DNA from: Escherichia phage vB-Eco-KMB25
Sequence record: OR424386.1
DNA length: 50,475 bases
Direction: 5' to 3' (one strand)
Both the position numbers and the translations under genes were made by a program. Below are positions 19,681 to 50,475 of this stretch, in pieces. The notes under the pieces were generated by a model. The model did no database searches and was not told where the DNA came from. It worked only from the letters and a program-made list of their open reading frames with translations. Position 1 is the first letter of the stretch; every line of letters begins with the position of its first letter.

Positions 19681-19720
19681 AATGTGGGGCGCATGCCCCA
19701 CTAATTAAAGAGGTGATTTT

Positions 19721-20029
19721 ATGAGTTACGATATTGCAACATGGGACGCAAACGGCGTTTACAATAACTATGGAATTAAGCCAGTTTCAGTAATATCAAA
19801 TATACAACTTTCATCAGGTCAAACATCTGGGCAATGGTTTTTTAATGTTCCACAAGGTAAAAAATTAGGCTATGTTGTTGGTCTTGATATTGGAGGTACT
19901 CAGGTTGGAAGGAAGATTGAAGTTTCTGGAAATTCTATAATTGTTAGCGCAGCATTATCTGGAAACGTAGGTTATAATTATTACCCTGCATCGCAATGTG
20001 AAGTTATCGTGTATTTGGAGAATGCATAA
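19721..20029 (+). CDS. small tail-associated protein (hypothetical)
   Basis: 102 aa with strong RBS AAAGAGGTG; contains WDANG motif shared with the ORF at the window end. Confidence 0.3.
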   Translation: MSYDIATWDANGVYNNYGIKPVSVISNIQLSSGQTSGQWFFNVPQGKKLGYVVGLDIGGTQVGRKIEVSGNSIIVSAALSGNVGYNYYPASQCEVIVYLENA

Positions 20030-20279
20030 TGTCTTATGGAGCAATGATTGATTACAAAAGTCAAACTTTCATAACGCCGGAATCAACTCCTTTTGTTAGG
20101 TTTACATTCCTGGTCAACAGCCTGTTATTGTTAACGTTTCTGCATATACTGCGGCAAGTTTTAACGGGTCAACAACGAGAATAAATGCCGCATCCAATCA
20201 GGCGGCTGGCGGTTCTCCTGTCGGTTATCTGAATACAGGCGTTGCGGTGACGGCAATTAATACAGCATCTTATGACTAA
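20029..20279 (+). pseudogene. frameshifted paralogue of the 3' part of the gene at 50018-50475
   Basis: ORF from ATG 20029 stops at 20184; the -1 frame (20100-20279) encodes VYIPGQQPVIVNVSAYTA... and is identical over at least 54 nt to 50422-50475; an in-frame TAG sits immediately before the homologous segment. Confidence 0.35.
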
Positions 20280-20306
20280 AAAAAGGAGGCTAAAGCCTCC
20301 TTTTTA
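20278..20306. terminator. bidirectional rho-independent terminator
   Basis: GGAGGC-TAAA-GCCTCC hairpin flanked by an A-run and a T-run between convergent genes. Confidence 0.6.
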
Positions 20307-20537
20307 TTAAATGCTACAATCTGAGTTTTTGAAGTTATCAACGCTCACCCACTGATAACTGAACGGGTATCCAGGCTTAACAAGAGTACGATCACCCACT
20401 CTCTTAACACCGAATATTGCAACTTCATAATTCATGCCGCTGTTTTCATATGTGGCGCTACATTCTCTCTTTGGCATGTTTGAACATCCAGTAATTAGAA
20501 TTGATGCGGCAATTGCTGCAATGATTGATTTTTTCAT
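20307..20537 (-). CDS. small lipoprotein, Cor-like superinfection-exclusion candidate
   Basis: 76 aa from ATG 20537 (RBS AAGGAA); lipoprotein signal MKKSIIAAIAASILITGC; convergent and adjacent to the tail fibre genes, as Cor is in T1/phi80-type phages. Confidence 0.45.
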   Translation of the reverse strand: MKKSIIAAIAASILITGCSNMPKRECSATYENSGMNYEVAIFGVKRVGDRTLVKPGYPFSYQWVSVDNFKNSDCSI

Positions 20538-20585
20538 GGTTATTTCCTTGTCATTTTGAATTTGGTTCATAGTTTGTGTGAGATA

Positions 20586-20640
20586 ACTATGCTACTAAAA
20601 TCCAATTGTTGCAAGTATTGTTTTTAGCAAAAAGTGCTAT
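20586..20640 (-). promoter_or_regulatory. promoter of the lipoprotein gene: TTGCAA-17-CATAGT with an upstream dyad box
   Basis: Minus-strand -35 at 20609-20614 and -10 at 20586-20591; box TAGCACTTTTTGCTAAAAAC at 20621-20640. Confidence 0.4.
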
Positions 20641-20723
20641 CTGTTGTTTTCTTTTGTTCCAAGGTGTTCACAACTTAATCCGGCGTAAAATTGAAAACGT
20701 CTTGATAACAAAAAGAACAAATG

Positions 20724-26948: not shown

Positions 26949-26991
26949 ATGATAAACCATGCCAGGCCGGAATTTTTAGCAATCAGTGCTA
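26949..26991 (-). promoter_or_regulatory. dyad-box promoter (TAGCACTGATTGCTAAAAA, 18 bp, TATCAT)
   Basis: Box overlaps the last codons of the upstream gene (..DSTDC stop). Confidence 0.45.
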
Positions 26992-27584
26992 TCGACGGAA
27001 ATCACAACGCGTTTCTTCTGATTGGCTTCCTTTGCTTTGCGCCGTTCTTCTTTCGCCTTGTCGCGTTCAGCTTTGCGCCGCGCTTTCTCCTTCTCGCGTT
27101 CTTCTGGAGTCATAGACCGTAACGGATCGTAAGGCCGAACAAATCCGCGCGCCTCCGCTTCTTCTTTTGTGACAAATCGCATGAGCTTTCTGTTGCTGCA
27201 ACGATTCTCTAATGGCTTGCCGTTGTTGTCAAAGCGCAAATCTGGACGGCAATATGAAGCGCGGAAACCGTTAAAACCTTTGCGGCGGTAATCCTTTTGG
27301 ATCAGTTCAGCGCCTTTAGCTGAAATCATTCCGCGCTCTTTCCATCCCCACACTGTTTTAAGGTTAACGCCAATCTCACGCGCCAACGCAGCACAGCCGC
27401 CATAAGCGCTAACCACTTCATCAAGCCTAGCTTTTAATCCTGCCCTTACTTCTTCCTTTAGTACCAGATAACCGCTAACAGGTGCGCGGCGCTTCCGGTC
27501 TTTACCACGCCTTACGCCGTTGTTACCATTGATTGTGCGTTTGTCGATTTCGCCCGTTGAGGCCGCAATTTTGATTCCGCCCAT
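26976..27584 (-). CDS. putative DNA-binding protein with Lys/Arg/Glu-rich C-terminus
   Basis: ATG 27584 behind AGGTGA; HTH-like segment AALAREIGVNLKTVWGW; protein ends DSTDC, encoded by the dyad box. Confidence 0.3.
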   Translation of the reverse strand: MGGIKIAASTGEIDKRTINGNNGVRRGKDRKRRAPVSGYLVLKEEVRAGLKARLDEVVSAYGGCAALAREIGVNLKTVWGWKERGMISAKGAELIQKDYRRKGFNGFRASYCRPDLRFDNNGKPLENRCSNRKLMRFVTKEEAEARGFVRPYDPLRSMTPEEREKEKARRKAERDKAKEERRKAKEANQKKRVVISVDSTDC

Positions 27585-27595
27585 ATTTTCACCTA

Positions 27596-27637
27596 TAGCA
27601 CTTTTTGCTAAAACTATTGAGTAAGTTTGTGTATGAT
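27596..27637 (+). promoter_or_regulatory. dyad-box promoter (TAGCACTTTTTGCTAAAAC, 17 bp, TATGAT)
   Basis: Upstream of the helicase gene. Confidence 0.5.
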
Positions 27638-27672
27638 ATGGTGCAAATGGCATTTAGTCAAAAGGATAAGTA

Positions 27673-31420: not shown

Positions 31421-31923
31421 GTGCTTAACGGAAAACAAGAGGATTTCAAAAATGAAAATCGTAAACGTCGAATACTTCAAAGATGCGCAATGGCTGGCTA
31501 AAGAATCATTGTTTATGCTTGATCGCAAAAATCCAAAGGTTATTGCACAAATACTTTGGAATGACGCAATGGAGTTACTTAAAAAGGCTTACGGTTATGA
31601 AAGTGAAGAAAGGTAAAAAGGAAACTTGGGAGCTTGCTAAAAAAGGCGGTCTTGATGAAGGGATCGCCAAAATAGCAAAGTATTTCGATATTAAAGACGT
31701 GTGCGTTATTGTTGGTGACGAAATGGCGTATGTTGAAGAAAAGCCGCGACGTGTTCACCGTGTTCCGGCAATACCAACAACAATAGACTATAAATCAGTT
31801 ATTAACAAAACCAAAGAACAAAAGAAATATTACAAATGAGATACATTTCTGTTATTTTGTTGCCGCCTGTTATCGCTTGGGTTATTATGTACGCCGTTGT
31901 TATGAATTAAGAGGATGTTAAAC

Positions 31924-33039
31924 ATGAGTTTAAAAAAGATTACCGACGAGCAATTGATTGCTGAACGTGAGGCGGGTTTAAAACTGCGTGAGATTGCGGA
32001 AAAATACGGAATGAGCTTGCGCCAGGTTGAGCACCGCCACAGCAAATTAGCAAAGCGTGGCGAGATCTCAACTATCGGATCACCTGGCTTTGCGGTAATT
32101 GGCGAGTCAAAGCTAGTTGATAAAAACGGCAATACTAAACTAACCTGGATTAAGACGCACAAAGATAAAGACCAGTTAGAGGCAATAATGCAAGCGGCTA
32201 TGGATGCATTTTCTGACGAGTTGCCACGCCTGGAACCACAGCCGGAAAAGATTACTGACTATTCGAAAACCCTTGCGCTATATCCGATCTTTGATATTCA
32301 TATTGGTGCAATGGCTCATAAGCATGAAAGCGGAGAGAATTACGACACAGCAACGGCAGAAAAGATCATGAATGAATTCTTTGATTATGCCGTCGATAAA
32401 GCACCGAATAGCGAAAAGGCTGTATTGCTGATTGGTGGTGATATGATTCACAGCGACGGCCTGGAGGCTGTAACACCTGCAAGCGGTCACGTTTTGGATC
32501 AGGATTCGCGATATGCGAAACTTGTTTATGTTGCCATTCGAGCCACGCGCAGAGCAGTAAGCCGAATGCTGGAAAAACATAAAGAGGTTGAATTGCAGAT
32601 CATTGAAGGTAATCACGACCAATCAGGAATGATCTGGCTACGTGCTGCAATGGCGGCGGCGTATGAGAATGAGCCACGCGTAAAGGTTGATGTTTCTCCG
32701 CGCGTCGTGCATCACACTCAATATGGTAAAACTTTCCTGGCTTATCATCATGGTCACACTGTACGAAAGCCAGAAACGCTTTTAATGATGTGTGCAGCGG
32801 ATTGGCGGGAAGATTTCGGAAACTCCAATTCAATGTATGCGCATGTAGGGCATTGGCATCACCAGACTGTTACAGAAACGAGCCTTGGCATTGTTGAGGT
32901 GCATAGCACTATGGCAGCAAAAGACGCTTACGCCGCGCGTGGTGGCTGGCGTTCACGTCGCAGGGCGGCGGTAATTATTTATGATAAGGAATATGGCGAA
33001 ATAGGGCGGTTTATGTTTTACCCTGAAATGATTGCTTAA
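31924..33039 (+). CDS. metallophosphoesterase with N-terminal HTH domain
   Basis: HTH LKLREIAEKYGMSLRQV; calcineurin-type motifs DIHIG, GGDMIHSD, GNHD, HHGH. Confidence 0.5.
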   Translation: MSLKKITDEQLIAEREAGLKLREIAEKYGMSLRQVEHRHSKLAKRGEISTIGSPGFAVIGESKLVDKNGNTKLTWIKTHKDKDQLEAIMQAAMDAFSDELPRLEPQPEKITDYSKTLALYPIFDIHIGAMAHKHESGENYDTATAEKIMNEFFDYAVDKAPNSEKAVLLIGGDMIHSDGLEAVTPASGHVLDQDSRYAKLVYVAIRATRRAVSRMLEKHKEVELQIIEGNHDQSGMIWLRAAMAAAYENEPRVKVDVSPRVVHHTQYGKTFLAYHHGHTVRKPETLLMMCAADWREDFGNSNSMYAHVGHWHHQTVTETSLGIVEVHSTMAAKDAYAARGGWRSRRRAAVIIYDKEYGEIGRFMFYPEMIA

Positions 33040-34526: not shown

Positions 34527-34569
34527 AATATACCCGATACAAGATCGGGTGTTTTAACAAAAAGTGCTA
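34527..34569 (-). promoter_or_regulatory. dyad-box promoter (TAGCACTTTTTGTTAAAAC, 18 bp, TATATT)
   Basis: Box TAG is the stop codon of the upstream gene. Confidence 0.5.
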
Positions 34570-34687
34570 TTCAAAGCGCCTGACGTGAATTAGTAGTTCA
34601 CCGTCATCATTTGTTAACTGGTGCTCATTATCTCCAAACGCTCGCATGTCACTGTAAAGCAATAGCAATAATGAGTAGACCAAATCA

Positions 34688-35080
34688 TCATGCGAAACTC
34701 TCATTGCTGAACTTTCTTTCAAAATAAGATCTATCAAATGCTGGCTTGCAGAATAATTCTTCATCACTCATTTTCTCAATGTTCATCATCTCCCACACAT
34801 AACGATTGGAATCACCTTCCAGGCTATGCAACTCAAAATTAAACGGCCTTTTCATCTTGTTTTTGCACCAGTACACGCAATGAACGCCGTCAAGATATCC
34901 ATAACCAATCATTCGCGCTATAAACTCTTTGCTTGAGCTTGAAGCGAAATAGCGGGGCGTTACCCCCGCATTTTTGGCGAGCCTTTCACATTCACGGTGA
35001 CGGAATATAAATCTTGCTAACTCTTGGCGGTTGAATTTCTCGCGAGACTCGCAAAAGCGATACAGATCTAATAAGAACAT
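34688..35080 (-). CDS. hypothetical protein
   Basis: 130-aa ORF; overlaps a small downstream ORF (34567-34704). Confidence 0.3.
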   Translation of the reverse strand: MFLLDLYRFCESREKFNRQELARFIFRHRECERLAKNAGVTPRYFASSSSKEFIARMIGYGYLDGVHCVYWCKNKMKRPFNFELHSLEGDSNRYVWEMMNIEKMSDEELFCKPAFDRSYFERKFSNESFA

Positions 35081-35082
35081 GA

Positions 35083-36663
35083 TTACCCCATTAACGCCGG
35101 ATTTACATAAACAAATTTACCAACGCTGCAAACATAATTCTTTTCTTCAAGCATTGGCAATAATTGTTCCTCAATTCGTTTCATCACGCCTGATTGACCT
35201 GTAAACGGCTTAACCTTACGCGCACTTTCATAGATGGCTCTTGCATTGGTAACTCCTTTATTTTGACGTGAGATCTTAATGATGATTTCAATTAACTTGC
35301 TCATTTCGGCATCATCGCCAGCGTGACCGGAAGCATTAGCGGCGTTGATATATGTTTTGCTTAATTCGCTGAACATCACCAAAGCCTCTTGCATTGTCTC
35401 AACTTCAATTTCTCGCGACTTTTGCGGCGTACCGTTTGGATTAAACCAATTGCGGATCGTGTGCAATACTGACGCAATGCGGATCACTTGCTTATCCATT
35501 TTGCCCAAAGCACCACGCAACATTGTATGTGAATATTTCCCGCCGTCTGCTAAATCTGGCTCTAATTGCTGGCGAGCAATATTAAGAACACGCATTGCAG
35601 AACGTGACGGCTTCAATACAACATTTTGCTCAGTCATGATGTTATGAATCAACTGGAAATATTGCGCCTTTAATTCTTTATCAACTGGCGTGTAATCAAG
35701 ATCACCATTTTCATCAATAAATACACGCTCGCCTAACATTGTTTTTTCACGTACAAGCAAGAAACGTTCACTAACACCGATACCACGCGCCCCTGCATCC
35801 ATGATCCCTTTTATCGTTTCATCCTGGGCAATTACGCTCATGCAGCCCAACGCAACAAAACTCATATTGTTTTCAGAGTTGGCGCGAGCTATTGAAACGT
35901 GTCCGGCGTCCCATGCTTTTAGAACCAATTCGCTGTTAGTCTTGCGATCACTATTAGCGTAAGTCAATCCGAGTAAGCTGTTGATGCTTGTTGCTTCATC
36001 GGAAATGACAGCAAAGTTACCCTGGCGATTGTTGATCTTTGCTAACCCTTCCGGCGTGGTGTCTGATACCGGAAAAACGATATCGCACATTTTTTCTAAC
36101 TTTTCCTCTAATTCCTCCTTTTCCTCAAACAACGCAGCTAACTCAGTGCCGGAACGTTCAGCTTTCAATTCCTTTTCAACGCCTTTTAATTTCGCTGCGA
36201 TCTTCTTTCGCTCTTTCTTGCGTTGTTCGTTGATGCGCTCAACTTCACAGACCATTGGCGCAATAGCCAGGCTGTTGATTGCTGATTTACCAGTTGATGG
36301 CGGCTGACTGGTTACAACATAAAGCGCCGTTGGTTGTTCAGTGCCGTGGTACTCAACTTGGAAGCGTCCAACCATAGCGGCGGAAACGCAACCAATGAAA
36401 TGCATATAGGCCGATGATTCAGGAAATTGAACAGATTGCGCAATGCTACGTGACAGTTTACCCACAACATCAACATCATTACCCAAAGAGATCACAGGAT
36501 AGCGGTCATTAGCGCCGTTAATATCCTTTACAGGTTCCCAAAAGCTGGACGATTGGCGGTAGCCGTTCGACTGAATAGCAACGCGAAGCGGCGATGTTCC
36601 CTGCGATTCTGCAATGGCTATAACTTGTTGAGGTGTCAATTTGTTGGTGTCAAAGTCAAACAT
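35083..36663 (-). CDS. P-loop NTPase (Walker A/B), possible replication-associated ATPase
   Basis: 526 aa; Walker A TSQPPSTGKS and Walker B-like VISDEAT. Confidence 0.45.
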   Translation of the reverse strand: MFDFDTNKLTPQQVIAIAESQGTSPLRVAIQSNGYRQSSSFWEPVKDINGANDRYPVISLGNDVDVVGKLSRSIAQSVQFPESSAYMHFIGCVSAAMVGRFQVEYHGTEQPTALYVVTSQPPSTGKSAINSLAIAPMVCEVERINEQRKKERKKIAAKLKGVEKELKAERSGTELAALFEEKEELEEKLEKMCDIVFPVSDTTPEGLAKINNRQGNFAVISDEATSINSLLGLTYANSDRKTNSELVLKAWDAGHVSIARANSENNMSFVALGCMSVIAQDETIKGIMDAGARGIGVSERFLLVREKTMLGERVFIDENGDLDYTPVDKELKAQYFQLIHNIMTEQNVVLKPSRSAMRVLNIARQQLEPDLADGGKYSHTMLRGALGKMDKQVIRIASVLHTIRNWFNPNGTPQKSREIEVETMQEALVMFSELSKTYINAANASGHAGDDAEMSKLIEIIIKISRQNKGVTNARAIYESARKVKPFTGQSGVMKRIEEQLLPMLEEKNYVCSVGKFVYVNPALMG

Positions 36664-36690
36664 CTAAAAATCTCCTTCTTGTTGCCGCTA

Positions 36691-36733
36691 ATTATAACGG
36701 CAACATTCTACAGCCTTTTAGCAATTCGTGCTA
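36691..36733 (-). promoter_or_regulatory. dyad-box promoter (TAGCACGAATTGCTAAAAG, 18 bp, TATAAT)
   Basis: Perfect -10 hexamer lies in the loop of hairpin GTTGCCG/CGGCAAC. Confidence 0.5.
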
Positions 36734-36979
36734 TTTGATCGGCTCAACCCTGGCTAATAACCTTCCATCTATAATGCTATGACATTCAAGAGTTTTAGGA
36801 TCGAATGCAAGCGAACGATGGAACGTATGACCAATCAGCAAATATGAATGCTTATCCCTGATGCGATAGACCGTTTCACCTTCCTTTAATGACGATATCG
36901 CACTAAAAACAACCTTGTAACGATATTTTTGCATGGCCTCAGAACGGTGAGGCGTATAGTCTTTTTCTGGTAAACTCAT
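36731..36979 (-). CDS. hypothetical protein
   Basis: 82-aa ORF whose TAG stop is the first triplet of the downstream dyad box. Confidence 0.3.
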   Translation of the reverse strand: MSLPEKDYTPHRSEAMQKYRYKVVFSAISSLKEGETVYRIRDKHSYLLIGHTFHRSLAFDPKTLECHSIIDGRLLARVEPIK

Positions 36980-37338
36980 GAGTATTTGGCCTCAAACAGA
37001 TAAGCACCGCCAGCGGCAGAGAATCCAACTTCTTCCCGATACAGCGTGAAACGGTCGCCGTTTTCGTCGAACACGTATCCAGCAACAGCACCTAACACGC
37101 GGCCTTGTTCGATCTGGTAACGCTTATCGGCTTTGAAAGTTTTCTTGATCTGCATGGAGTGGTTTACCCATGTGCATTTAATGGTTTTGGTCTTAACATT
37201 TCGGAATGTTAATCCTGTTAAGTTTGCGTGAATCCATTTCCCATCTAACTTAACGAAAGTATCATCATTTTCGTCTACCCGCGCTTTGTATAGGCGGTTA
37301 TCAGATCCGATAAGTTTGATTGATTTGAATTTAGCCAT
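36976..37338 (-). CDS. hypothetical protein
   Basis: 120-aa ORF with RBS AAGGAG. Confidence 0.3.
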   Translation of the reverse strand: MAKFKSIKLIGSDNRLYKARVDENDDTFVKLDGKWIHANLTGLTFRNVKTKTIKCTWVNHSMQIKKTFKADKRYQIEQGRVLGAVAGYVFDENGDRFTLYREEVGFSAAGGAYLFEAKYS

Positions 37339-37370
37339 TTGATTTATCTCCTTTTGTTTTCGTTGAAATC

Positions 37371-37413
37371 ATTATGCCGGATACGTGATCCGGCGTTTTA
37401 ACAAAAAGTGCTA
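37371..37413 (-). promoter_or_regulatory. dyad-box promoter (TAGCACTTTTTGTTAAAAC, 18 bp, CATAAT)
   Basis: Spacer is hairpin GCCGGAT-CACGT-ATCCGGC. Confidence 0.5.
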
Positions 37414-38106
37414 TTTCTGATTTGCCAGGCATACAGCAAGCGCAAAGCCGCGCGGAGTGAGTGAGCGGATCAGCTTTGTTCGCTTAGACTTGCCGCCGAG
37501 CTTTTGCCAGCCTGGATTGTTGTTCCCTGTTGGCAATACTGCGTTTGTATCCGGCATTACAAAGCCGTTACCCGTCCAAAGACAAGTTTTTTTGGTGTAC
37601 GCATCGCGAGCGGGAATGATTTCAGGAAAGTGAGGATGTTTATCATCTTCCGGCAACAGACCTCCAAACGCGCAAGGATGAAAGATAAAATCAGGTTGCC
37701 GCCACATTGACGACAGAACACTAACAGGATTCTCAATCATATATGGAACGTTAAACCGATCCGCAATATTGGCAGCAATCTTTGCCGTTTCAACCGCCTT
37801 TTTCTGGAAGTCTGGATCACGTTCACGCTTTGCTGCAAAGTGACGCGATCCGCTAACAGCTAAATCAGTGCATGGAGGGAATGCAATAATAAAATCTGGA
37901 GTGCCAAAGACGCGCATCATTGCGTTATGCTGGAATGATAATCCGATCCACTCATTCAAATAAACGATGTTGGGATGAGTCACGCGCACTGATTGGTAAT
38001 CACCATGATCAGCACCGTCGAAATTAAAGCACAGCACTTTGTGACCACGTTCAGCCCACGGCAACGCAGCATAACCAGAACCATCAAATAGTGAGAAAAT
38101 AAGCAT
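37411..38106 (-). CDS. putative SAM-dependent DNA methyltransferase (C5-cytosine-like motifs)
   Basis: 231 aa from ATG 38106 behind AAAGGA; motif I-like LFDGSGY, PC-containing FPPCTD, ENV-like MIENPVSV. Confidence 0.4.
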   Translation of the reverse strand: MLIFSLFDGSGYAALPWAERGHKVLCFNFDGADHGDYQSVRVTHPNIVYLNEWIGLSFQHNAMMRVFGTPDFIIAFPPCTDLAVSGSRHFAAKRERDPDFQKKAVETAKIAANIADRFNVPYMIENPVSVLSSMWRQPDFIFHPCAFGGLLPEDDKHPHFPEIIPARDAYTKKTCLWTGNGFVMPDTNAVLPTGNNNPGWQKLGGKSKRTKLIRSLTPRGFALAVCLANQK

Positions 38107-38783
38107 GTTTAAATCCTTTCTGTATGACCTTGCAAGGCATTTTGTTTGTAGGTGTGACAATCGTATTAGTTACGGCCTGAAATCGCGAAATAATGCGAAA
38201 CAGGCCGCTATTTTTTACTTACAGAATGGGCATGTTGTTTTATCCCCGCTTCCGCCGTGTTTTGGACAGCAAATTTTTTCGATAGGTGTCATTTTAAATA
38301 CTCCTTAGAATGGGAAACAACGCTTGCAAGATGGATCGAAGTTACAACCGCAATCATTGATTATTGCGTTAGGATCAGCAAGCATCACGCTACTTTCTTG
38401 ATCCATATCCATAGCGCCTAATGCGTCATCAAGCGTTATTTCAAGATAGGCAACTTTAAGCGCCCATTCCTTGTTGAGTCCATCCGCCTCCGCTTCATGT
38501 AGGCGAGCAAAGAAAGCATCTTGAACCATATCAACCCCACTTCTCAATAAACATGCTCATTTCGTCAATCATCGCGTAAGCATCGCTTTCAGTCATGCGA
38601 CGGATTCTTCCGCCTGGGTGTTCGCCAACAGCGTAACCAGTTTTTACGCGGGTAATCGTTAACTGATGGAATCCAGAATCGCGATCCATTTTCAAAACTA
38701 CTTTCCCGTGAGCTTTGACAATGTTCATGATGGATTCAGTTTTCAGTTTCATTTTTGATTCTCCATTTTGTTTATGTGAAAGT

Positions 38784-38826
38784 ATGATACCAATCAGAGC
38801 GTTATCGTTTTTAGCAATTCGTGCTA
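38784..38826 (-). promoter_or_regulatory. dyad-box promoter (TAGCACGAATTGCTAAAAAC, 17 bp, TATCAT)
   Basis: Box encodes the C-terminal NSTNC of a 51-aa upstream ORF (38822-38978). Confidence 0.45.
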
Positions 38827-38974
38827 TTTACGGCGATAAACGGATATCCTGTTAAATCTGCATTTCTATAACGTGCAGACCTAACCCAACAGCCGCCTTT
38901 GCTCATAATTAAAGCGTTTTTATGGCGAATGTTCACGCGGCAAATTCTTCCGGTTTTTATGTTTTTGAAGTAGG

Positions 38975-39208
38975 TCATAATTTAACCTCATGATACTCTA
39001 TAAACTCTTGCACATATGCGCATTCGCGCGGCGACTCCTGGCCTTTTATCACCTCACAGCCACCATTAAACAGATAGCAGTGCTGGCAAAGGTTGCCACC
39101 TGCGTTTTCCTCAGCGATCTGAATTCCGGTACACAAACCGCCACCAAACCTATGAGGAAAATCGTAAGCCTGGCAGCGGCACGTTGCTTGATTCCGCTTA
39201 CGTTTCAT
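38975..39208 (-). CDS. cysteine-rich small protein (hypothetical, possible zinc binding)
   Basis: 77 aa with several CxC/CxxC-type motifs. Confidence 0.3.
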   Translation of the reverse strand: MKRKRNQATCRCQAYDFPHRFGGGLCTGIQIAEENAGGNLCQHCYLFNGGCEVIKGQESPRECAYVQEFIEYHEVKL

Positions 39209-39521
39209 TAGATGTTCTCGCTAATAAACTGGATAACCTGGCGAAGATGTTTTTCATCTTTAATTAATGCTGGCAATTCTTCCATAACTTCTTTTTTAAG
39301 ATAAATGTTTGCATTCCAGGTGAATGAGCCATCACCATTTACGCGGTAAGAGCAAAGCCATTCGCAATCATTATCAGATTCCCAAATGCACAGCGTTTCA
39401 AATTCTTCAAACTTGTTGTAACCCGTTTCAATGCTTAACTCAATGCCACGTTTGCCAGCGAAGTTAGTAGTTGTTTTTGATACCATCATTTTAAAATTCT
39501 CCGGTTCGTTTCGATGAATGC

Positions 39522-39564
39522 ATTATGCCAAAACAAACCGGATCGCTTTTAACAAAAAGTGCTA
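39522..39564 (-). promoter_or_regulatory. dyad-box promoter (TAGCACTTTTTGTTAAAAG, 18 bp, CATAAT)
   Basis: Upstream of gene 39208-39489. Confidence 0.5.
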
Positions 39565-40340
39565 TTTAATTAAAATACGAATACCTTTTCGCACGCTTTC
39601 CGTCGCCTCCGTAATGGTCATTAGCAACAGCAAGAATCCAAGCGTTAGGAATAAAAAATAGCTTCATTAATCACTCTCCATGACAATTACAGGCTCCAGG
39701 CGCTCAAGCACCACTTTGAAATCGGAGTAAAAAGTAGGGCGACGTTTTGTTAATTCCTCATATGTATCAGTTGCCAGGCAAGCGCGATCACCTTCATAGC
39801 ACACAACTCGCTTACCATTGGCGCGGCTTATTGCAACGACGCGATAAGTATTATTGATCATTTCATCACCTCAATTGAATAAATACTTTCAACGCCTGGC
39901 GCGTATAACCGATCTCCATCTTCAGTTATGCAAAGACAAAGTGCAAGGCCGCGATTGTCTGAAATATGCAAGTCATTTTGTCTATCCATCAAAATTTCAT
40001 ATTCGCGATCTTCATCAAAGCGCCAAACGCTTAACATGCACTTTCCAGATGATTTAACTTTTACTTTCTTTCCGGCGAAATTTAAACGACTCATTGCGCC
40101 ACCTCCACAGTTTCAAATACGGTATTGAATGCCAGAAGTTTAAATTTCTTGCCAGGCTCAACAACCTGAATATTCCAGGTAATGCCGCCGTGATATGCAA
40201 CCATATCATCAATATCGACGGTGATTTGTGCGCCCTTCTTGAATAAACCTTTTTCATGGCTCGCATCGCGTACAGTAACCACAGTTTCGAATTGAGTTTG
40301 AATTTCCATCGTTAATCTCCTGATTGGTTTCGATGGGGTA

Positions 40341-40383
40341 ACTATATCAAGATACCCCGATCCGGTTTTAACAAAAAATGCTA
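40341..40383 (-). promoter_or_regulatory. dyad-box promoter (TAGCATTTTTTGTTAAAAC, 18 bp, TATAGT)
   Basis: -10 lies in the loop of hairpin GGGGTA/TACCCC. Confidence 0.5.
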
Positions 40384-40384
40384 T

Positions 40385-40819
40385 TTACAGCCATTCGCCG
40401 GAAACAATGAAATCAGTGAAATCGTCATGATCCAAAATGCTGTGATAGCCAGTGCAATAATCATTTTTAACCATGTTACCACGCAAACGCACATAATCAG
40501 CCTTTCGATCCGTAATCCAACGAATAAAGCGAGCGTTACGTTGTGGTATCGTTCCGGCGTAAGCCTCTTTGAATCCAATGTGTGCGATGAATGCCACAAA
40601 GCGGATTTGCAAGCCTGGATTGTCTTTCTTTGCCTCGTTAACCAGGTCGCGGAAGTTTTCACGCGTTGGCTTGACCGGAACCAATTCGCCTAACTCGATC
40701 ATGCGGTTGAAGTCTGAAATGCTGGAATATGATTGCATAAACAGCCCATCGCTACCAAACATCACAACGCCGTTTTCGATGAAGTAAGTGTGTCCGTTGT
40801 ATTTGTTGGTGTATTTCAT
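40385..40819 (-). CDS. hypothetical protein
   Basis: 145 aa from ATG 40819 behind GAGG. Confidence 0.3.
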   Translation of the reverse strand: MKYTNKYNGHTYFIENGVVMFGSDGLFMQSYSSISDFNRMIELGELVPVKPTRENFRDLVNEAKKDNPGLQIRFVAFIAHIGFKEAYAGTIPQRNARFIRWITDRKADYVRLRGNMVKNDYCTGYHSILDHDDFTDFIVSGEWL

Positions 40820-40850
40820 CGTGAATTCCTCAGTTCGTTTCGATGAAGCA

Positions 40851-40893
40851 ATCATAGCAATTCGCGTCTGATTGGTTTTAACAAAAAGTGCTA
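40851..40893 (-). promoter_or_regulatory. dyad-box promoter (TAGCACTTTTTGTTAAAAC, 18 bp, TATGAT)
   Basis: Outermost promoter of the minus-strand cluster, at the edge of the AT-rich region. Confidence 0.5.
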
Positions 40894-40902
40894 TTCATGC
40901 GA

Positions 40903-42553: not shown

Positions 42554-43355
42554 TTGGCATAATTACCCCATCGAAACGAAACGAGGAAAACACAATGACT
42601 ACCTTAATCACCTGGGAACACGAAACAAGCCAGCCAGTAACCCGCGAGTTTGAAACTCTTAGCCAGGCTTATCTTTTGGCTGCTAACGGTGGTTATTACA
42701 AGGCTCAAGTTGTTGATGAAATGGGAGTGATCGTTTATGAATTCCATGCATAATTTCCGCAGCTACACGCAGGAAGTGGATTTTGAGGGGATCAAGTTAC
42801 CACTTCCTAACATATACCGCTATATCACTCGTGATGAATACGGATTTATAAACGCCTGGCGAGATAAGCCCAAAAAGGTTGGCAATGAATACGGCGACGG
42901 CTCAGAGATGCCGATCACGTTAGGTCATCAAACTGGCGAGAATGTAGCGGCTGTAATGCGCAAATATCGCCGCAGCCTCACAAACTCATTAATTTCTATC
43001 TTTGGCATACAGGAGTAATAAAAATGTTTGAACTGAAACGCGTAACTGTTGAGATCCTGAATGATGGCTCTTACGATGGAATGAAACACTTAACATTCCC
43101 GATCCGCATTGAGAATTGCATTGATTACGGTATTGAAGTTGGAATGGTTGACGTTCCGCTTGATGCCCTGGTAGCGGCTGGCTATGACAAAGAGAAAGGC
43201 CAATGCGCCGATATACCGGATAGCTATGAAAGCGACACACATTTCCCGTTCACCTATGGCGAATGCAGGATTGTTGATTGAGGTTATAAAGTGAGCAGTT
43301 GGCATAATGAACACGTAATGCAATTCTACCGCTACAGAATAAAGAAAATGCTAAA

Positions 43356-43398
43356 TAGCACGAATTGCTAAAACTAAATCAGGGGCATTTGTTATAGT
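43356..43398 (+). promoter_or_regulatory. dyad-box promoter (TAGCACGAATTGCTAAAAC, 18 bp, TGtTATAGT)
   Basis: Extended -10-like TGnTATAGT in the loop of hairpin AGGGGCA/TGCCCCT. Confidence 0.5.
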
Positions 43399-43987: not shown

Positions 43988-44014
43988 AACAGAATTTTGA
44001 GCTTGCTGTATAGT
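43972..44014 (+). promoter_or_regulatory. dyad-box promoter (CAGCACGAATTGCTAAAAC, 18 bp, TATAGT)
   Basis: Box embedded in the 3' end of the upstream CDS. Confidence 0.45.
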
Positions 44015-44361
44015 AAGCTCATACCAAACAACGAAAGGATCAAAAAATGGAATTAGCACGTAACGCGGTTTATGGCTTACACCTTAATAAAGGCGGCAAA
44101 GGCTCAAGTTATGCACACCTTTTTCATGTTAACGAGCGCGGTCAAATTGATATTGCAATGTATGTTGACAAACTGGTTAAAGGTTGTGAGTCCAGCAAGT
44201 TCAGACCCGATCTGATTGAATACGATCACACACACAGTCACGACCACTGGTTAGGTGGTTATAAATTTACAATGCTTGATAGCCATGTTATTGACACAAG
44301 AAAATTAACGAATCGTGACTATAGGCGCATGGCTCGAAAAATCCTGAAGCAGAAAGCGCAA

Positions 44362-44404
44362 TAGCACGAAATGTTAAGCGGTCATGTGTGCTGATTGGTA
44401 CAAT
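44362..44404 (+). promoter_or_regulatory. dyad-box promoter, degenerate box (TAGCACGAAATGTTAAGCG, 18 bp, TACAAT)
   Basis: Downstream leader GCATCAACCAACAAGAGAGGA is nearly identical to that at 22164-22184. Confidence 0.4.
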
Positions 44405-44547
44405 GACCGCATCAACCAACAAGAGAGGATAGAAAAATGTCAAAAGAATCAATTAAGCAGTTTCTGAAATACGGCTCTATGATTGTGCTCGCTACCGTTG
44501 TGCTGGCTGGCATCGCTTACAGTGTCATCGAATTTGTGGGGTAATGG

Positions 44548-45111
44548 ATGTTTAAGATCGAATTGTGGGGGAAGGAATACGCTAATCACTACGTTGCAAC
44601 AAAACAGCGTTTCGTTATTTTTGACCTGGACGGCACGTTATCAAATGGGGCGCATCGCTTGCACCTGTTGCCAACTGTTGACTTGCATCTTACTGAAAGC
44701 TGGAGTGAGTTTAACCGCGCCTCAAAGGATGATTCACCGTTCAGCAATAACATTTCCGTGTGCAATGCTATGTTTGATGCCGGATACCTGGTTATCATCC
44801 TAACGGGTCGGAGTGATGAAGTTGAGGCAGAAACGCGAGCATGGTTAGCTGAAAACGGCGTTTCTTTCGATTGGCTGATTATGCGCCGAGCGGAGGACAA
44901 CCGGAAAGATACCGTGATCAAAGAGGAAGTTTTACGGACTATCGGGCTTGATCGCATTGTCGCATGTTGGGATGACTCGCCAAACGTTATTGCACACTTG
45001 CGCGGCCTGGGCTTGACGGTTTACCAGGTTATTGACTACGGAGACCAGTTGCACGATCACATAAAATCTCACGGCGTGGAGGAATTGAGCGATGACAGCA
45101 AAGCTAATTGA
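44548..45111 (+). CDS. HAD-superfamily phosphatase (polynucleotide 3'-phosphatase-like)
   Basis: Motif I FDLDGTL, later LTGRSD and WDDSP motifs typical of HAD phosphatases. Confidence 0.55.
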   Translation: MFKIELWGKEYANHYVATKQRFVIFDLDGTLSNGAHRLHLLPTVDLHLTESWSEFNRASKDDSPFSNNISVCNAMFDAGYLVIILTGRSDEVEAETRAWLAENGVSFDWLIMRRAEDNRKDTVIKEEVLRTIGLDRIVACWDDSPNVIAHLRGLGLTVYQVIDYGDQLHDHIKSHGVEELSDDSKAN

Positions 45112-45477
45112 AGATCGGCATGGTGATAACGTGCTTATTTACATCGAAGGGAAATCGGTGTTGATTGACTGCAAATATGAGGATGACACACATTTGCAGT
45201 TTCGCGGAATCTTTGACAAGAAAGGCGCATTGGAGTTAGCGGAACACATCAAGCGTCTTGCGGAAGAATTACCGGAATAGAGGATTTATTATGTTGACTT
45301 TTATCTTGATCGCTATCGTTTTAATTCTGTATGTTTGCGGCGCTTTCCTGATGCGAGCGCTACTAAAAGAGGCTGACGCTGATGATAAGGATAGTTGGAA
45401 GCCGATTATTTTATGGCCTGGCTATATCATCGTGCCAATTTACGAACTAATCCGCGATGGTGAGTTTAAATGGTAAA

Positions 45478-45520
45478 TAGCACTTTTTGCTAAAACTTGC
45501 TAAGGCACATTTGATAAAGT
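45478..45520 (+). promoter_or_regulatory. dyad-box promoter (TAGCACTTTTTGCTAAAAC, 18 bp, TGaTAAAGT)
   Basis: -10 in the loop of hairpin AGGCACA/TGTGCCT. Confidence 0.5.
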
Positions 45521-46024
45521 GTGCCTTGTCGAGACAAGCAAGGAGAATGACACATGAAAGTTTTTATGATTAAACAGTTTGGACGCACTGCATATTATAT
45601 CATCAACGACGAGGGAGATATTTTCATTTCGAACTATCCTACTCTTGAAGTAGGTCGTCATTTCAGAAGTTCAGTTGACGAAAAGGGAGTTATCAATATG
45701 GTTGAGTGTGGAATGATGGTTCCCTTCAATAAAGAAGCGGCTGAATTATTCCAGCAATCACAGATCCGAAAACGCAACCGCAATATTATTTGCTTCACAA
45801 TTGCAATGGTTGTAACTGTTGGCTCAATCTTACTTGGAGTGTGGTCGTGATGAATACTGATAATAAAGTTGAAACACAAAAGACGATCAACTATCTGCGA
45901 GCGCTTGCTGATGCTCTTGAGTCCGGCGAGGCAGCATTAAATGATGTTAGTATTGAGTCAAGAAATCACGGATGGACTCAGATCGAAGAAACATTAACCG
46001 TTCAATATTTTAAGGTGAATAAAG

Positions 46025-46600
46025 ATGGCTAAAATTATAATCCTCAATGCGCCTCCTGGTGCTGGTAAAGACACGATAGGCAAGATGATTTCTGTCTATT
46101 CGCCTGGTAAGCAATGCCGAATCATTAGCTTTAAAGAGCCAATGTTTGATATTGCATTAGCTATCCTGGGCAAAGAGAACTATAAGCGTTTCATGCTGGC
46201 TTACGATGACAGAGAGCAGAAAGAAAGGCCGCAAACATTCCTGATGGGTATGTCACCGCGCGAGTTCATGATCTGGATTAGCGAGGATGTGATCAAGCCT
46301 AAATTCGGTAAGGATTATTTCGGCGTAAGGTTTAATCAGAAAGTAAAAGAGTGTGATGCTCCTGTTGTTTGCACTGATGGCGGTTTTCCAGATGAAATTA
46401 TAGCGCTAATCAATGCTGGTAATGAGGTGAAGTTATGCCGCTTGCACCGCGACGGGTTCACGTTTGCAGGTGATAGCCGCAACTACATTCGAATAAATCC
46501 ATACTACCAGAAAAACGGATATAGCGAGCACGATTATAAATTGGTTGATAAACAACCAAATGTAACGGTAAAGGAAATCATTCGCGATCACCTTAAATAG
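46025..46600 (+). CDS. P-loop kinase (polynucleotide or nucleotide kinase-like)
   Basis: N-terminal Walker A LNAPPGAGKDT; 191 aa; 0.9 kb downstream of the HAD phosphatase. Confidence 0.5.
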   Translation: MAKIIILNAPPGAGKDTIGKMISVYSPGKQCRIISFKEPMFDIALAILGKENYKRFMLAYDDREQKERPQTFLMGMSPREFMIWISEDVIKPKFGKDYFGVRFNQKVKECDAPVVCTDGGFPDEIIALINAGNEVKLCRLHRDGFTFAGDSRNYIRINPYYQKNGYSEHDYKLVDKQPNVTVKEIIRDHLK

Positions 46601-46640
46601 CACGAATTGCTAAAACTTGCGCAAGGCCATTTGTTATAGT
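46598..46640 (+). promoter_or_regulatory. dyad-box promoter (TAGCACGAATTGCTAAAAC, 18 bp, TGtTATAGT)
   Basis: Box TAG is the kinase stop codon; -10 in the loop of hairpin AAGGCCA/TGGCCTT. Confidence 0.5.
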
Positions 46641-47474
46641 GGCCTTATTCAAGAGAAGCAACCAATCAGAGGAATAAACGATGAAAATCAAATGCACCAA
46701 ATCAAACACAATGAATCTGACAGTTGGCGCGATTTACCATATGGAAGAAGGTGTAAACGGGTTTAGCCCAACTGTTACGCATGAGTACGGCGGTCACTTC
46801 TTCTTAAACGGTAAAGACGGATTATCTGTAAATGTTGGCTCTTTCGTTCTGGCAGAATTTGAGATCGTGGAGGAATAAAAATGTTCTGGATTCATTCGCC
46901 GCAAGGTTTGCTTTATGTGCCTGGCGTTGAATTTGAAGAACGACGCGACGGCGACACGGTAAACATCATAACTAAGGATTCAAAAGGCCACACTCTTAAA
47001 ACGTATGTTTTAAACACTCCGGTTAAGGTCGAAAAAGATGATTAAATTTATTGGTTTTGTGGCATTGCTTGTGTGCGGCATATGGCTTACTGACAATGAC
47101 ACTTGGCAAAGTGCTGTTGGAGGATTACTTATTTTTCTTGCTGGTGGCATGGTTGGCAGTGATGACGCAACAAATAAGAACAAACTTTCGGATCATTTAC
47201 GCAGAGAGACAAAACGATGAATAGAAAAATGCTGGTACGCGCCTTTGCTAAGATTGCTAAAAGGTGGGGAGACTCTAACAAATCGCCTTACACGTTTAGC
47301 CGCTACGGTTATAAAAATGCTCGCGACTGGGGTCGCTGCATTGCGGATAACTACAACTCCGAAATTCTGGAAGATTTCGCAAAGTGGATTGATACGCCTT
47401 TGAAGGATTGGTGTCAATTTGACTATGACTATTTCGCAGAAGAAGAAATTTCTTGTTTGTAAGGAGAATAAAAT

Positions 47475-49309: not shown

Positions 49310-50017
49310 AAACGCCGTGAACATAAGAGGCTCAATAGAGCAAAGCGCGGCGCGTTAGCCGTAAAACCTAATCGGATGGGATTGCATAGCAAACGACCAT
49401 CGCGGGAACCGTAACCCGCAACCATTCAGGAGAATTCACGATGCAAAACAAAGAAATCGCAAAGGTAACTATCATCGTCGAGCGTGACGGAAAGAAAACG
49501 CGATACAAGAAGCGATTTAAACAAGGTGAGGCGATGTTAGGCCGGATCGGTGATTTCATGGTGAAATTGCAAGAGGATAAACCGGATGAAATTCAAGGTT
49601 AAGCTAACTATCCGGCGCATGGGTCGCAATTGCGGATCATGTAAACAAGATTTCGAATGCGAGGTTGAAGCGCTAAACACTGTTGATGCGGTTAAATGCG
49701 CTAAAGTTCTTTCAGGTGCTAACCCTGAAACACACCAATTTTCAATCAATTATGTGAGGGCTATATAATGCTGATGTTCATTGCTGGTTTTGGTTTTTGT
49801 GCGATTATCTGTTTCTTTCTCTATCTTTGTTTTTCGTGGGGTGTACAGCGTTGCGTAAAAGACAACGAATTAGTGATCGCCATTTACGAAAACAAAGCTG
49901 ATAAATGGAAGATTACTAAAAACTTTGAAAAGATTGCTGATGAAATTGCATTCCGTCGCAAGTTTGGCAAGCCTGGAAGCATCAAGTATATTGATTGATT
50001 TATATTCAAGAACGGAA

Positions 50018-50475
50018 GTGGTAGCAACAAAAACAACTGGCGAAAACGTAAGCGCAATATCAAGAGTTTATTGCCCTAGATCATATTCTGCCATTGGATT
50101 TATAAAATGCTCATGGGGTGCGGCTTTAGGTTGTTATAGGGACGGTGATTATATAGTTTTTAGCGGATCTGCACAGGGTAGGAATGTGCCGTTGTTTACA
50201 ATAACATGTTATTTATTTGCTAAATTTCCACAACCATTACCGCAATGGGGCATGGCTATATGGGATGCAAACGGTACATGCATTCTAACAAATGAAAGCA
50301 AGCCATTATCGGATCTTATTACTATTGGAGAACCTGGTTCTGGCGGTGGAATATATATAGATCAGACATTATCTGGTTCTTATGCTGTTATGCCTAGATT
50401 GATGGGCTCTACTTTAGTTCAGGTTTACATTCCTGGTCAACAGCCTGTTATTGTTAACGTTTCTGCATATACTGC
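50018..50475 (+). CDS. tail fibre-like / receptor-recognition candidate, truncated by the window end
   Basis: Frame open from 49940 to the window edge; start uncertain (GTG 50018 or ATG 50252); WDANG motif as in 19721-20029 and 3' end identical to 20099-20152. Confidence 0.35.
   Translation, partial: MVATKTTGENVSAISRVYCPRSYSAIGFIKCSWGAALGCYRDGDYIVFSGSAQGRNVPLFTITCYLFAKFPQPLPQWGMAIWDANGTCILTNESKPLSDLITIGEPGSGGGIYIDQTLSGSYAVMPRLMGSTLVQVYIPGQQPVIVNVSAYT

What the first reader, a model, noticed from the sequence alone, without database searches (positions are those of the whole stretch)
44548..46600. Split polynucleotide kinase-phosphatase candidate without a recognisable ligase partner
A HAD phosphatase (44548-45111, DLDGTL motif) and a P-loop kinase (46025-46600, GAGKD Walker A) are encoded as separate early genes about 0.9 kb apart, each region having its own dyad-box promoter. 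Together they resemble the two activities of T4-type polynucleotide kinase-phosphatase, which repairs tRNA cut by host anticodon nucleases, but no RNA ligase-like gene was recognised nearby. They could instead serve nucleotide metabolism. Either a ligase is among the unannotated small ORFs, or the host ligase is used, or the function differs.
Basis: inference. Interest (0 to 1): 0.5.

Follow-up and report, generated by a model that had tools for sequence, protein, structure and literature searches.

The report
Phage dNMP kinase plus Pnkp-type phosphatase
These are two already-annotated genes of a T1-like phage, a deoxynucleotide (dNMP) kinase and a stand-alone Pnkp-type phosphatase, that most likely help recycle host DNA into phage DNA and are not a split tRNA-repair enzyme, so the finding is largely ordinary.

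Summary
Both ORFs are real and lie exactly where stated. The window is a Tlsvirus (Drexlerviridae) phage close to Citrobacter phage Stevie. [quoted passage not shown]

The 191-aa protein is not a Pnk-type kinase. It is homologous over its full length to T4 gp1 dNMP kinase and 52.6% identical to Rao1 R1DNK, which has been shown biochemically to phosphorylate dAMP, dGMP, dCMP and dTMP.

No ligase is encoded in the window.

The two genes are nevertheless linked. The phosphatase lies upstream of the kinase on the same strand in 67 of 80 related viral loci, often overlapping it and preceded by an exonuclease gene. Two metagenomic proteins fuse the two domains.

A T4 Stp-like 26-aa peptide lies 1.2 kb upstream, as the Stevie authors noted in 2015. 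T1 and Rao1 carry the pair without Stp.

Best reading: a deoxynucleotide-supply module for reuse of host DNA. The phosphatase substrate remains unknown. Interest is low.

The parts
44548..45111 (+). Stand-alone Pnkp-type HAD phosphatase gene (187 aa), equivalent to Stevie gp71, which is mis-named 'polynucleotide kinase'
46025..46600 (+). dNMP kinase gene (191 aa, T4 gp1 / R1DNK family), equivalent to Stevie gp76
43291..43371 (+). 26-aa Stp-like ORF (GTG start): (M)SSWHNEHVMQFYRYRIKKMLNSTNC
   Evidence: 12 of the first 14 residues are identical to T4 Stp, and the length is the same. Annotated as Stp in the Stevie RefSeq record and discussed in PMC4319613.
44437..44544 (+). 35-aa hydrophobic ORF directly upstream of the HAD gene, first gene after the degenerate dyad box
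   Evidence: phrog_17726, unknown function
44361..44379 (+). Degenerate dyad box (2 mismatches), followed by TGGTACAAT; candidate promoter of the unit holding the HAD gene
45092..46032 (+). Four small ORFs of unknown function (62, 61, 98 and 60 aa) separating the HAD and kinase genes in this genus
   Evidence: In T1 this position holds an HNH endonuclease gene. In Rao1 and Webervirus it holds nothing.
45477..45495 (+). Dyad box (perfect match), followed by TGATAAAGT; candidate promoter of the unit holding the kinase gene
46597..46615 (+). Dyad box overlapping the kinase stop codon; start of the next unit
31915..33039 (+). 'DNA repair exonuclease' gene (374 aa, phrog_704). Its orthologues sit immediately upstream of the HAD-kinase pair in Rao1, Webervirus and some Autographiviridae.

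Best explanation
The two genes are separate enzymes of the phage's deoxynucleotide-supply module, not two halves of a tRNA-repair Pnkp. The 191-aa protein is a broad-specificity dNMP kinase. It converts 5'-dNMPs released from the degraded host chromosome into dNDPs, which host Ndk then turns into dNTPs for phage DNA synthesis by the host polymerase. The 187-aa protein is a stand-alone Pnkp-type HAD phosphatase working in the same pathway. Most likely it removes 3'-phosphates from DNA breakdown products (3'-phosphorylated ends, oligonucleotides, or deoxynucleoside 3',5'-bisphosphates). That would let the linked exonuclease finish digestion and would yield 5'-dNMPs, the kinase's substrate. What is shown: the family membership of both proteins, the biochemical activity of a 52.6%-identical kinase orthologue, conserved gene order and natural fusions, and the absence of a ligase. 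What is inferred: the phosphatase substrate and the exonuclease, phosphatase, kinase pipeline.

For: Phosphatase.

Linkage. In 67 of 80 IMG/VR loci the HAD gene lies upstream of the kinase on the same strand within 2.2 kb. In 32 it is directly adjacent, and in 28 the exonuclease gene lies just upstream of it. The genes overlap by 4 bp in Solomon and PP99. Rao1 has gp56-gp57-gp58 in this order. T1 has the pair split only by an HNH endonuclease gene. Two divergent fusion proteins, HAD_PNKP then kinase, share a homologous linker.

Biology. T1 and TLS degrade the host genome and reuse its nucleotides, and they lack a DNA polymerase gene (PMC11447400). A 2026 paper already reads the pnk and dNMP-kinase pair as enhancing nucleotide supply (PMC13164509).
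Against: No member of this stand-alone HAD clade has a measured substrate. I know of no T1-family or host nuclease shown to leave 3'-phosphates on DNA during infection. Deleting dnk in Rao1 had no detectable fitness cost in the laboratory, so the module is dispensable under those conditions. In this genus the two genes are no longer adjacent, and they are far from the exonuclease gene. The Stp-like peptide nearby keeps an RNA-damage context conceivable.
Confidence: 0.6

Rival explanations
1. Split Pnkp for tRNA repair. The HAD protein removes the 2',3'-cyclic or 3'-phosphate and the P-loop protein phosphorylates the 5'-OH of tRNA cut by an anticodon nuclease. A host or unrecognised ligase then seals the break.
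For: The HAD domain is Pnkp-type with an intact active site. A T4 Stp-like peptide lies 1.2 kb upstream, and in T4 Stp activates PrrC. The Stevie authors suggested this link. The pair is genetically linked and sometimes fused.
Against: The kinase is a gp1/R1DNK-type dNMP kinase with measured dNMP activity in an orthologue. Its similarity to T4 Pnk stops at the P-loop. No ligase was found: every ORF of 250 aa or more has another assignment, and Pfam, PHROGs and tblastn scans were negative. T1 and Rao1 carry the pair but have no Stp. From general knowledge, the host RNA ligase RtcB needs a 3'-phosphate or cyclic-phosphate end, which a 3'-phosphatase would destroy.
Confidence: 0.05
2. DNA-end healing. 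The HAD protein is a DNA 3'-phosphatase that unblocks 3' ends for host polymerase, recombination or ligation during phage replication or repair. Its linkage to the kinase reflects only shared membership of the DNA-metabolism gene block, or the kinase has an unrecognised 5'-OH DNA kinase activity.
For: The fold and residues are Pnkp-type. Neighbours in relatives are nucleases. In 14 podovirus-type loci a DNA ligase gene directly follows the kinase, for example PP99: 5'-3' exonuclease, endonuclease VII, exonuclease, phosphatase, dNMP kinase, DNA ligase. From general knowledge, stand-alone DNA 3'-phosphatases exist (yeast Tpp1).
Against: This does not explain the overlapping genes or the conserved fusions with a dNMP kinase. 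The ligase adjacency persists in loci that lack the HAD gene and is absent from every T1-like genome examined. Phosphoryl transfer to a hydroxyl is different chemistry from NMP kinase activity.
Confidence: 0.2
3. Dmp-like mononucleotidase. The HAD protein dephosphorylates 5'-dNMPs, or selected non-canonical dNMPs. It would balance or sanitise the pool feeding the kinase, or blunt Kongming-type immunity that is triggered by phage dNMP kinases.
For: T5 Dmp, a proven 5'-dNMP phosphatase, aligns with the HAD protein and shares all HAD motifs plus the HR motif 11 residues after the nucleophile. Dmp genes co-occur with DNK genes in phages and counter Kongming. Pfam Acid_phosphat_B, a family that from general knowledge includes the nucleotidase AphA, also passes its cut-off.
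Confidence: 0.12

Closest known systems
Phage dNMP kinases: Rao1 R1DNK, the VAC2 and KarlJaspers DNKs, T4 gp1, T5 Dnk
   Same: Shares the GxxGxGKDT P-loop with Lys15 and the same motif set (SFKxPMF, RxFMIWISE, DGGFxxE, RLHRxGxTFxGDSR). It is 44-53% identical to the T1-like DNKs that were tested, and it shows full-length profile and fold homology to T4 gp1.
   Different: It is much shorter than T4 gp1 (241 aa) and T5 Dnk (about 250 aa) and lacks their long insertion. The activity of this particular protein has not been measured.
T4 polynucleotide kinase-phosphatase (PseT/Pnkp)
   Same: The HAD protein aligns with the whole C-terminal phosphatase domain (28% identity), keeps all seven residues I recall as essential, and has the same fold.
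   Different: There is no Pnk kinase domain in the protein. The neighbouring kinase belongs to another family. The gene order is phosphatase then kinase. There is no Rnl1 partner. The protein carries an extra conserved insertion (HRLHLLPTxDLHLTESWSEFN) and a conserved C-terminal tail that the model leaves at low confidence.
Capnocytophaga Pnkp1 of the Pnkp1-Rnl-Hen1 RNA repair complex (PDB 4xrp)
   Different: Pnkp1 is a kinase-phosphatase fusion acting with a ligase and Hen1. None of those partners is present here.
T5 Dmp (deoxynucleoside 5'-monophosphatase)
   Same: It is a HAD enzyme with the same motifs, and it also co-occurs with a phage dNMP kinase.
   Different: It is only distantly related, with just the N-terminal half detected, and it has no Pfam match. 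The Rao1 orthologue of the window's HAD protein does not substitute for Dmp.
T4 Stp (26-aa inhibitor of type Ic restriction and activator of PrrC)
   Same: Same length, with 12 of the first 14 residues identical. These lie within the N-proximal 18 residues implicated in function.
   Different: The C-terminal 12 residues are unrelated and are encoded by the dyad-box repeat. The function in T1-like phages is untested.

Membership tests
T4-type bifunctional Pnkp (RNA-repair kinase-phosphatase) | HAD (DxDxT) 3'-phosphatase domain with the catalytic set D165, D167, R176, R213, D254, D277, D278 | tested here: met
T4-type bifunctional Pnkp (RNA-repair kinase-phosphatase) | Pnk-type 5'-OH polynucleotide kinase domain, in the same protein or in a partner | tested here: not met
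T4-type bifunctional Pnkp (RNA-repair kinase-phosphatase) | Companion RNA ligase (Rnl1/Rnl2 type) | tested here: not met
   None is annotated in the near-identical Stevie genome. No ligase family appears in Pfam or PHROGs scans of 20 ORFs. tblastn with T4 and PP99 DNA ligases finds nothing. All ORFs of 250 aa or more are otherwise assigned. T4 Rnl1 and Rnl2 sequences themselves were not used as queries.
T4-type bifunctional Pnkp (RNA-repair kinase-phosphatase) | Activity on polynucleotide 3'-phosphate or 2',3'-cyclic phosphate ends and on 5'-OH ends | not testable with these tools
   Needs enzyme assays.
Phage dNMP kinase (T4 gp1 / R1DNK family) | P-loop ending GKD(T) with a catalytic Lys | tested here: met
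   PPGAGKDT at residues 10-17. G14, K15 and D16 are invariant across 90 diverse homologues. R1DNK K15A is inactive.
Phage dNMP kinase (T4 gp1 / R1DNK family) | Full-length homology and fold shared with characterised members | tested here: met
Phage dNMP kinase (T4 gp1 / R1DNK family) | dNMP to dNDP activity | not testable with these tools
   Measured only for the orthologue R1DNK.
T5 Dmp-type 5'-dNMP phosphatase | Sequence membership of the Dmp clade | tested here: inconclusive
   BLASTP 5e-5 over 76 aa. hhalign gives 65% probability over 80 columns. All HAD motifs align, but the protein is clearly closer to Pnkp.
T4 Stp peptide | 26-aa peptide with a conserved N-proximal segment | tested here: met
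   12 of 14 N-terminal residues identical and equal length. The N-proximal 18 residues are implicated in function. Function itself is not testable here.

The most novel reading that the evidence does not exclude
The HAD_PNKP phosphatase and the gp1-type kinase form an order-swapped, non-orthologous analogue of Pnkp (phosphatase then kinase, sometimes in one polypeptide) that heals broken nucleic-acid ends. This would mean DNK-family enzymes have an unrecognised 5'-OH polynucleotide kinase activity. In Autographiviridae relatives the adjacent DNA ligase would seal the break. In this Stp-encoding Tlsvirus the module would limit damage from PrrC-type nucleases.
Probability: 0.06. Interest if true: 0.65.

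Novelty: already known. Interest (0 to 1): 0.15.

Why it matters
There is little here to surprise a specialist. Both genes are already annotated. The kinase family was characterised biochemically in the Kongming work, where it is the trigger of that immune system. The pairing has been noted in the Drexlerviridae literature.

Three points are still useful:
1. The widespread label 'polynucleotide kinase' on these roughly 180-aa proteins is wrong, because they contain only the phosphatase domain.
2. The phosphatase-kinase linkage is very strong (same order, overlapping genes, natural fusions, often preceded by an exonuclease gene). That makes this trio the obvious candidate for the still-unidentified host-DNA recycling pathway of T1 and TLS.
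3. The window's kinase predicts sensitivity to Kongming-type defence, and the Stp-like peptide predicts interaction with type Ic restriction systems.

Tried and rejected
- Sequence-only searches of the kinase against PDB, with one sequence and with profile A1, gave only P-loop noise.
- NCBIfam gave nothing above its cut-offs.
- hhalign with the low-diversity profile A1 could not separate gp1 from Pnk. The more diverse profile A2 resolved this.
- Two literature hits were irrelevant: 'Stp' matched StpA in the H-NS preprint, and the retron Eco2 paper mentions PNK only as a reagent.
- A fetch of T4 138-146 kb missed pseT.
- The simple sigma-70 scan did not detect the dyad-box sites, so promoter function rests on the architecture alone.
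- I considered the idea that the HAD protein is the phage's anti-Kongming Dmp and rejected it as the main reading because of the Rao1 data.
- I considered the idea that a ligase hides among the small ORFs and rejected it on size and profile scans.
- I considered the DNA-ligase adjacency in podovirus relatives as evidence for end healing. I down-weighted it because it persists without the HAD gene and is absent from T1-like genomes.

Full report
**What the window is.** The region 44000-47000 is 99.4% identical to Citrobacter phage Stevie, a T1-like siphovirus (Drexlerviridae, Tempevirinae, Tlsvirus). Whole-window BLAST shows a mosaic relative of Stevie rather than Stevie itself. In the Stevie RefSeq record the two ORFs are gp71 'polynucleotide kinase' and gp76 'deoxynucleoside monophosphate kinase'. 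The TLS re-annotation paper names the same pair, Gp09 and Gp14 (PMC11447400).

**Observation.** Both ORFs exist at the stated coordinates with the stated motifs, 913 bp apart.
- Four small ORFs of unknown function lie between them.
- The 'dyad box' is a real repeat family, with 23 copies against 0.85 expected.
- An alignment of 20 copies shows a fixed layout: TAAATAGCAC-N5-TGCTAAAAC, then about 20 nt, then an extended -10-like TGnTATAAT, then about 35 nt, then an RBS and an ATG.
- The HAD gene follows a degenerate box at 44361, and the kinase follows a perfect box at 45477.
- A promoter role is plausible but unproven. The sigma-70 scan does not find these sites, and the Stevie authors call the repeat's role unknown.

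**The HAD protein.** This is a Pnkp-type phosphatase domain and nothing more.
- It passes the Pfam cut-off for HAD_PNKP at 3.2e-19 and matches phrog_415 at 4e-69.
- Its best matches among solved structures by sequence are Pnkp1 of the Pnkp1-Rnl-Hen1 complex and T4 Pnkp.
- BLASTP aligns residues 19-161 with T4 PseT 158-296 at 28% identity. A family profile gives 97% hhalign probability over the whole phosphatase domain.
- D26, D28, R37, R88, D121, D142 and D143 align with the T4 residues I recall as essential: D165, D167, R176, R213, D254, D277 and D278.
- All 120 listed homologues are 162-264 aa and carry only HAD-type domains. The common label 'polynucleotide kinase' is therefore a misnomer.
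- The protein is also distantly related to T5 Dmp, a proven 5'-dNMP phosphatase. Homology alone therefore does not fix the substrate.

**The kinase.** This is a dNMP kinase, not a Pnk.
- It matches phrog_139 'dNMP kinase' at 7e-48.
- The AF2 model is very confident, with pLDDT 94.7.
- A diverse 90-sequence profile aligns with T4 gp1 over 177 columns at 94.7% probability. It aligns with T4 Pnkp over only 26 P-loop columns.
- Decisively, the Kongming study characterised Rao1 gp58 (R1DNK). It phosphorylates dAMP, dGMP, dCMP and dTMP, its K15A mutant is inactive, and deleting the gene lowers dATP.
- Using the sequences in that paper's Table S1, the window protein is 52.6% identical to R1DNK, 52.7% to the KarlJaspers DNK and 44% to the VAC2 DNK. 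All three trigger Kongming toxicity.

**No ligase.** I found none by any route.
- Nothing ligase-like is annotated in Stevie.
- All window ORFs of 250 aa or more have other assignments.
- Pfam and PHROGs scans of 20 ORFs, including all neighbours, found no ligase family.
- tblastn with T4 and PP99 DNA ligases found nothing in the window, Stevie, T1 or Rao1.

**The two genes are nevertheless a unit.**
- In Klebsiella phage Solomon the order is exonuclease, HAD, kinase, with a 4-bp overlap between HAD and kinase.
- Rao1 has gp56, gp57 and gp58 in the same order.
- In T1 the pair is interrupted only by an HNH endonuclease gene.
- Of 80 IMG/VR loci holding a kinase homologue (38-99% identity), 67 have the HAD gene upstream on the same strand within 2.2 kb. 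In 32 it is directly adjacent, and in 28 the exonuclease gene lies just upstream. These loci are related phages, so the counts are not independent events.
- Two divergent metagenomic proteins, P0259 (403 aa) and P0265 (461 aa), fuse HAD_PNKP to this kinase. Their linkers are homologous, so the fusion looks like a real architecture rather than an assembly error.
- A 2026 paper already noted the pnk and dNMP-kinase pair downstream of the exonuclease gene in Drexlerviridae and suggested it boosts nucleotide supply (PMC13164509).

**The Stp twist.** A 26-aa ORF at 43291-43371 shares 12 of its first 14 residues with T4 Stp. That segment lies within the N-proximal region implicated in Stp function.
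- The Stevie authors noted this in 2015 and linked it to the 'polynucleotide kinase'.
- Stp-like peptides occur in 733 phage records, mostly T4-like.
- T1 and Rao1 have the HAD-kinase pair but no Stp. The pair therefore does not depend on Stp.
- From general knowledge, a 3'-phosphatase alone cannot repair PrrC-cut tRNA, and it would remove the end that host RtcB needs.

**Mechanism.** I conclude that the kinase supplies dNDPs from dNMPs in a phage that degrades host DNA, reuses its nucleotides and has no polymerase of its own.
- For the phosphatase, a 5'-dNMPase coupled or fused to a dNMP kinase would be a futile cycle.
- Rao1 has an intact HAD orthologue (61% identity, all motifs). It is still Kongming-sensitive, accumulates dAMP, and needs T5 Dmp in trans for rescue.
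- The most economical reading is therefore a 3'-phosphatase that clears 3'-phosphorylated DNA breakdown products upstream of the kinase. This is inference, and I put about 0.6 on the overall picture.

**Rivals.**
- DNA-end healing (0.2). In PP99-like podoviruses a DNA ligase gene directly follows the kinase, but this also holds where the HAD gene is absent.
- A Dmp-like mononucleotidase (0.12).
- tRNA repair (0.05).

**Verdict.** The features are already known and interest is low.

Noticed in passing
window 43291-43371 (+): A 26-aa Stp-like ORF with a GTG start. Its N-terminal 14 residues are nearly identical to T4 Stp, while its C-terminal residues (...MLNSTNC*) are encoded by the dyad-box repeat itself. 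Similar peptides occur in some 40-50 kb siphoviruses as well as in T4-like phages.
   Followed up: partly
window, 23 sites, e.g. 22119, 27595, 42520, 43355, 45477, 46597, 47984 (+) and 34552-40894 (-): The dyad-box repeat (TAGCA-N5-TGCTA) sits about 20 nt upstream of an extended -10-like element, too far to serve as a -35. That position resembles a class-II activator site. In many copies the -10 lies in the loop of a hairpin whose stem differs between copies but stays complementary (e.g. GGGGCA/TGCCCC, AAGGCACA/TGTGCCTT, GCGGTCAT/ATGACCGC). Several upstream ORFs end inside the box. A candidate binder is the HTH regulator at 26976-27653 (-).
   Followed up: partly
window 49999-50475 and 20098-20152: The last 477 bases or so of the window have no counterpart in Stevie. 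The final 55 bases are an exact copy of 20098-20152, and 19433-20644 is also non-homologous to Stevie. This looks like an assembly join or an alternative allele of the tail-fibre-distal region appended to the contig end.
   Followed up: partly
L091 (Pectobacterium phage PP99) 773-5519, and 14 IMG/VR loci such as L062, L079, L083, L088: In about 45-kb Autographiviridae-type phages an ATP-dependent DNA ligase gene directly follows, and often overlaps, the dNMP-kinase homologue. This holds whether or not the HAD gene is present. In PP99 the run is 5'-3' exonuclease, endonuclease VII, exonuclease, phosphatase, dNMP kinase, DNA ligase.
   Followed up: partly
P0259 (403 aa) and P0265 (461 aa), metagenomic proteins: Natural fusions of a HAD_PNKP phosphatase (N-terminal) to this dNMP-kinase family (C-terminal), with a homologous linker containing GPELHG. 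P0259 occurs on three contigs of up to 60.7 kb.
   Followed up: partly
L010 (phage T1) 4948-6534: In T1 an HNH homing endonuclease gene (ST63) is inserted exactly between the HAD gene (ST64) and the kinase gene (ST62, annotated as hypothetical but 50% identical to the window kinase).
   Followed up: yes
window 44548-45111, protein residues 165-187: The C-terminal tail of the HAD protein (YGDxxHxHLKSHGVEEL) is conserved across T1-like phages, yet the model leaves it at low confidence. It may be a docking peptide for a partner protein.
   Followed up: no
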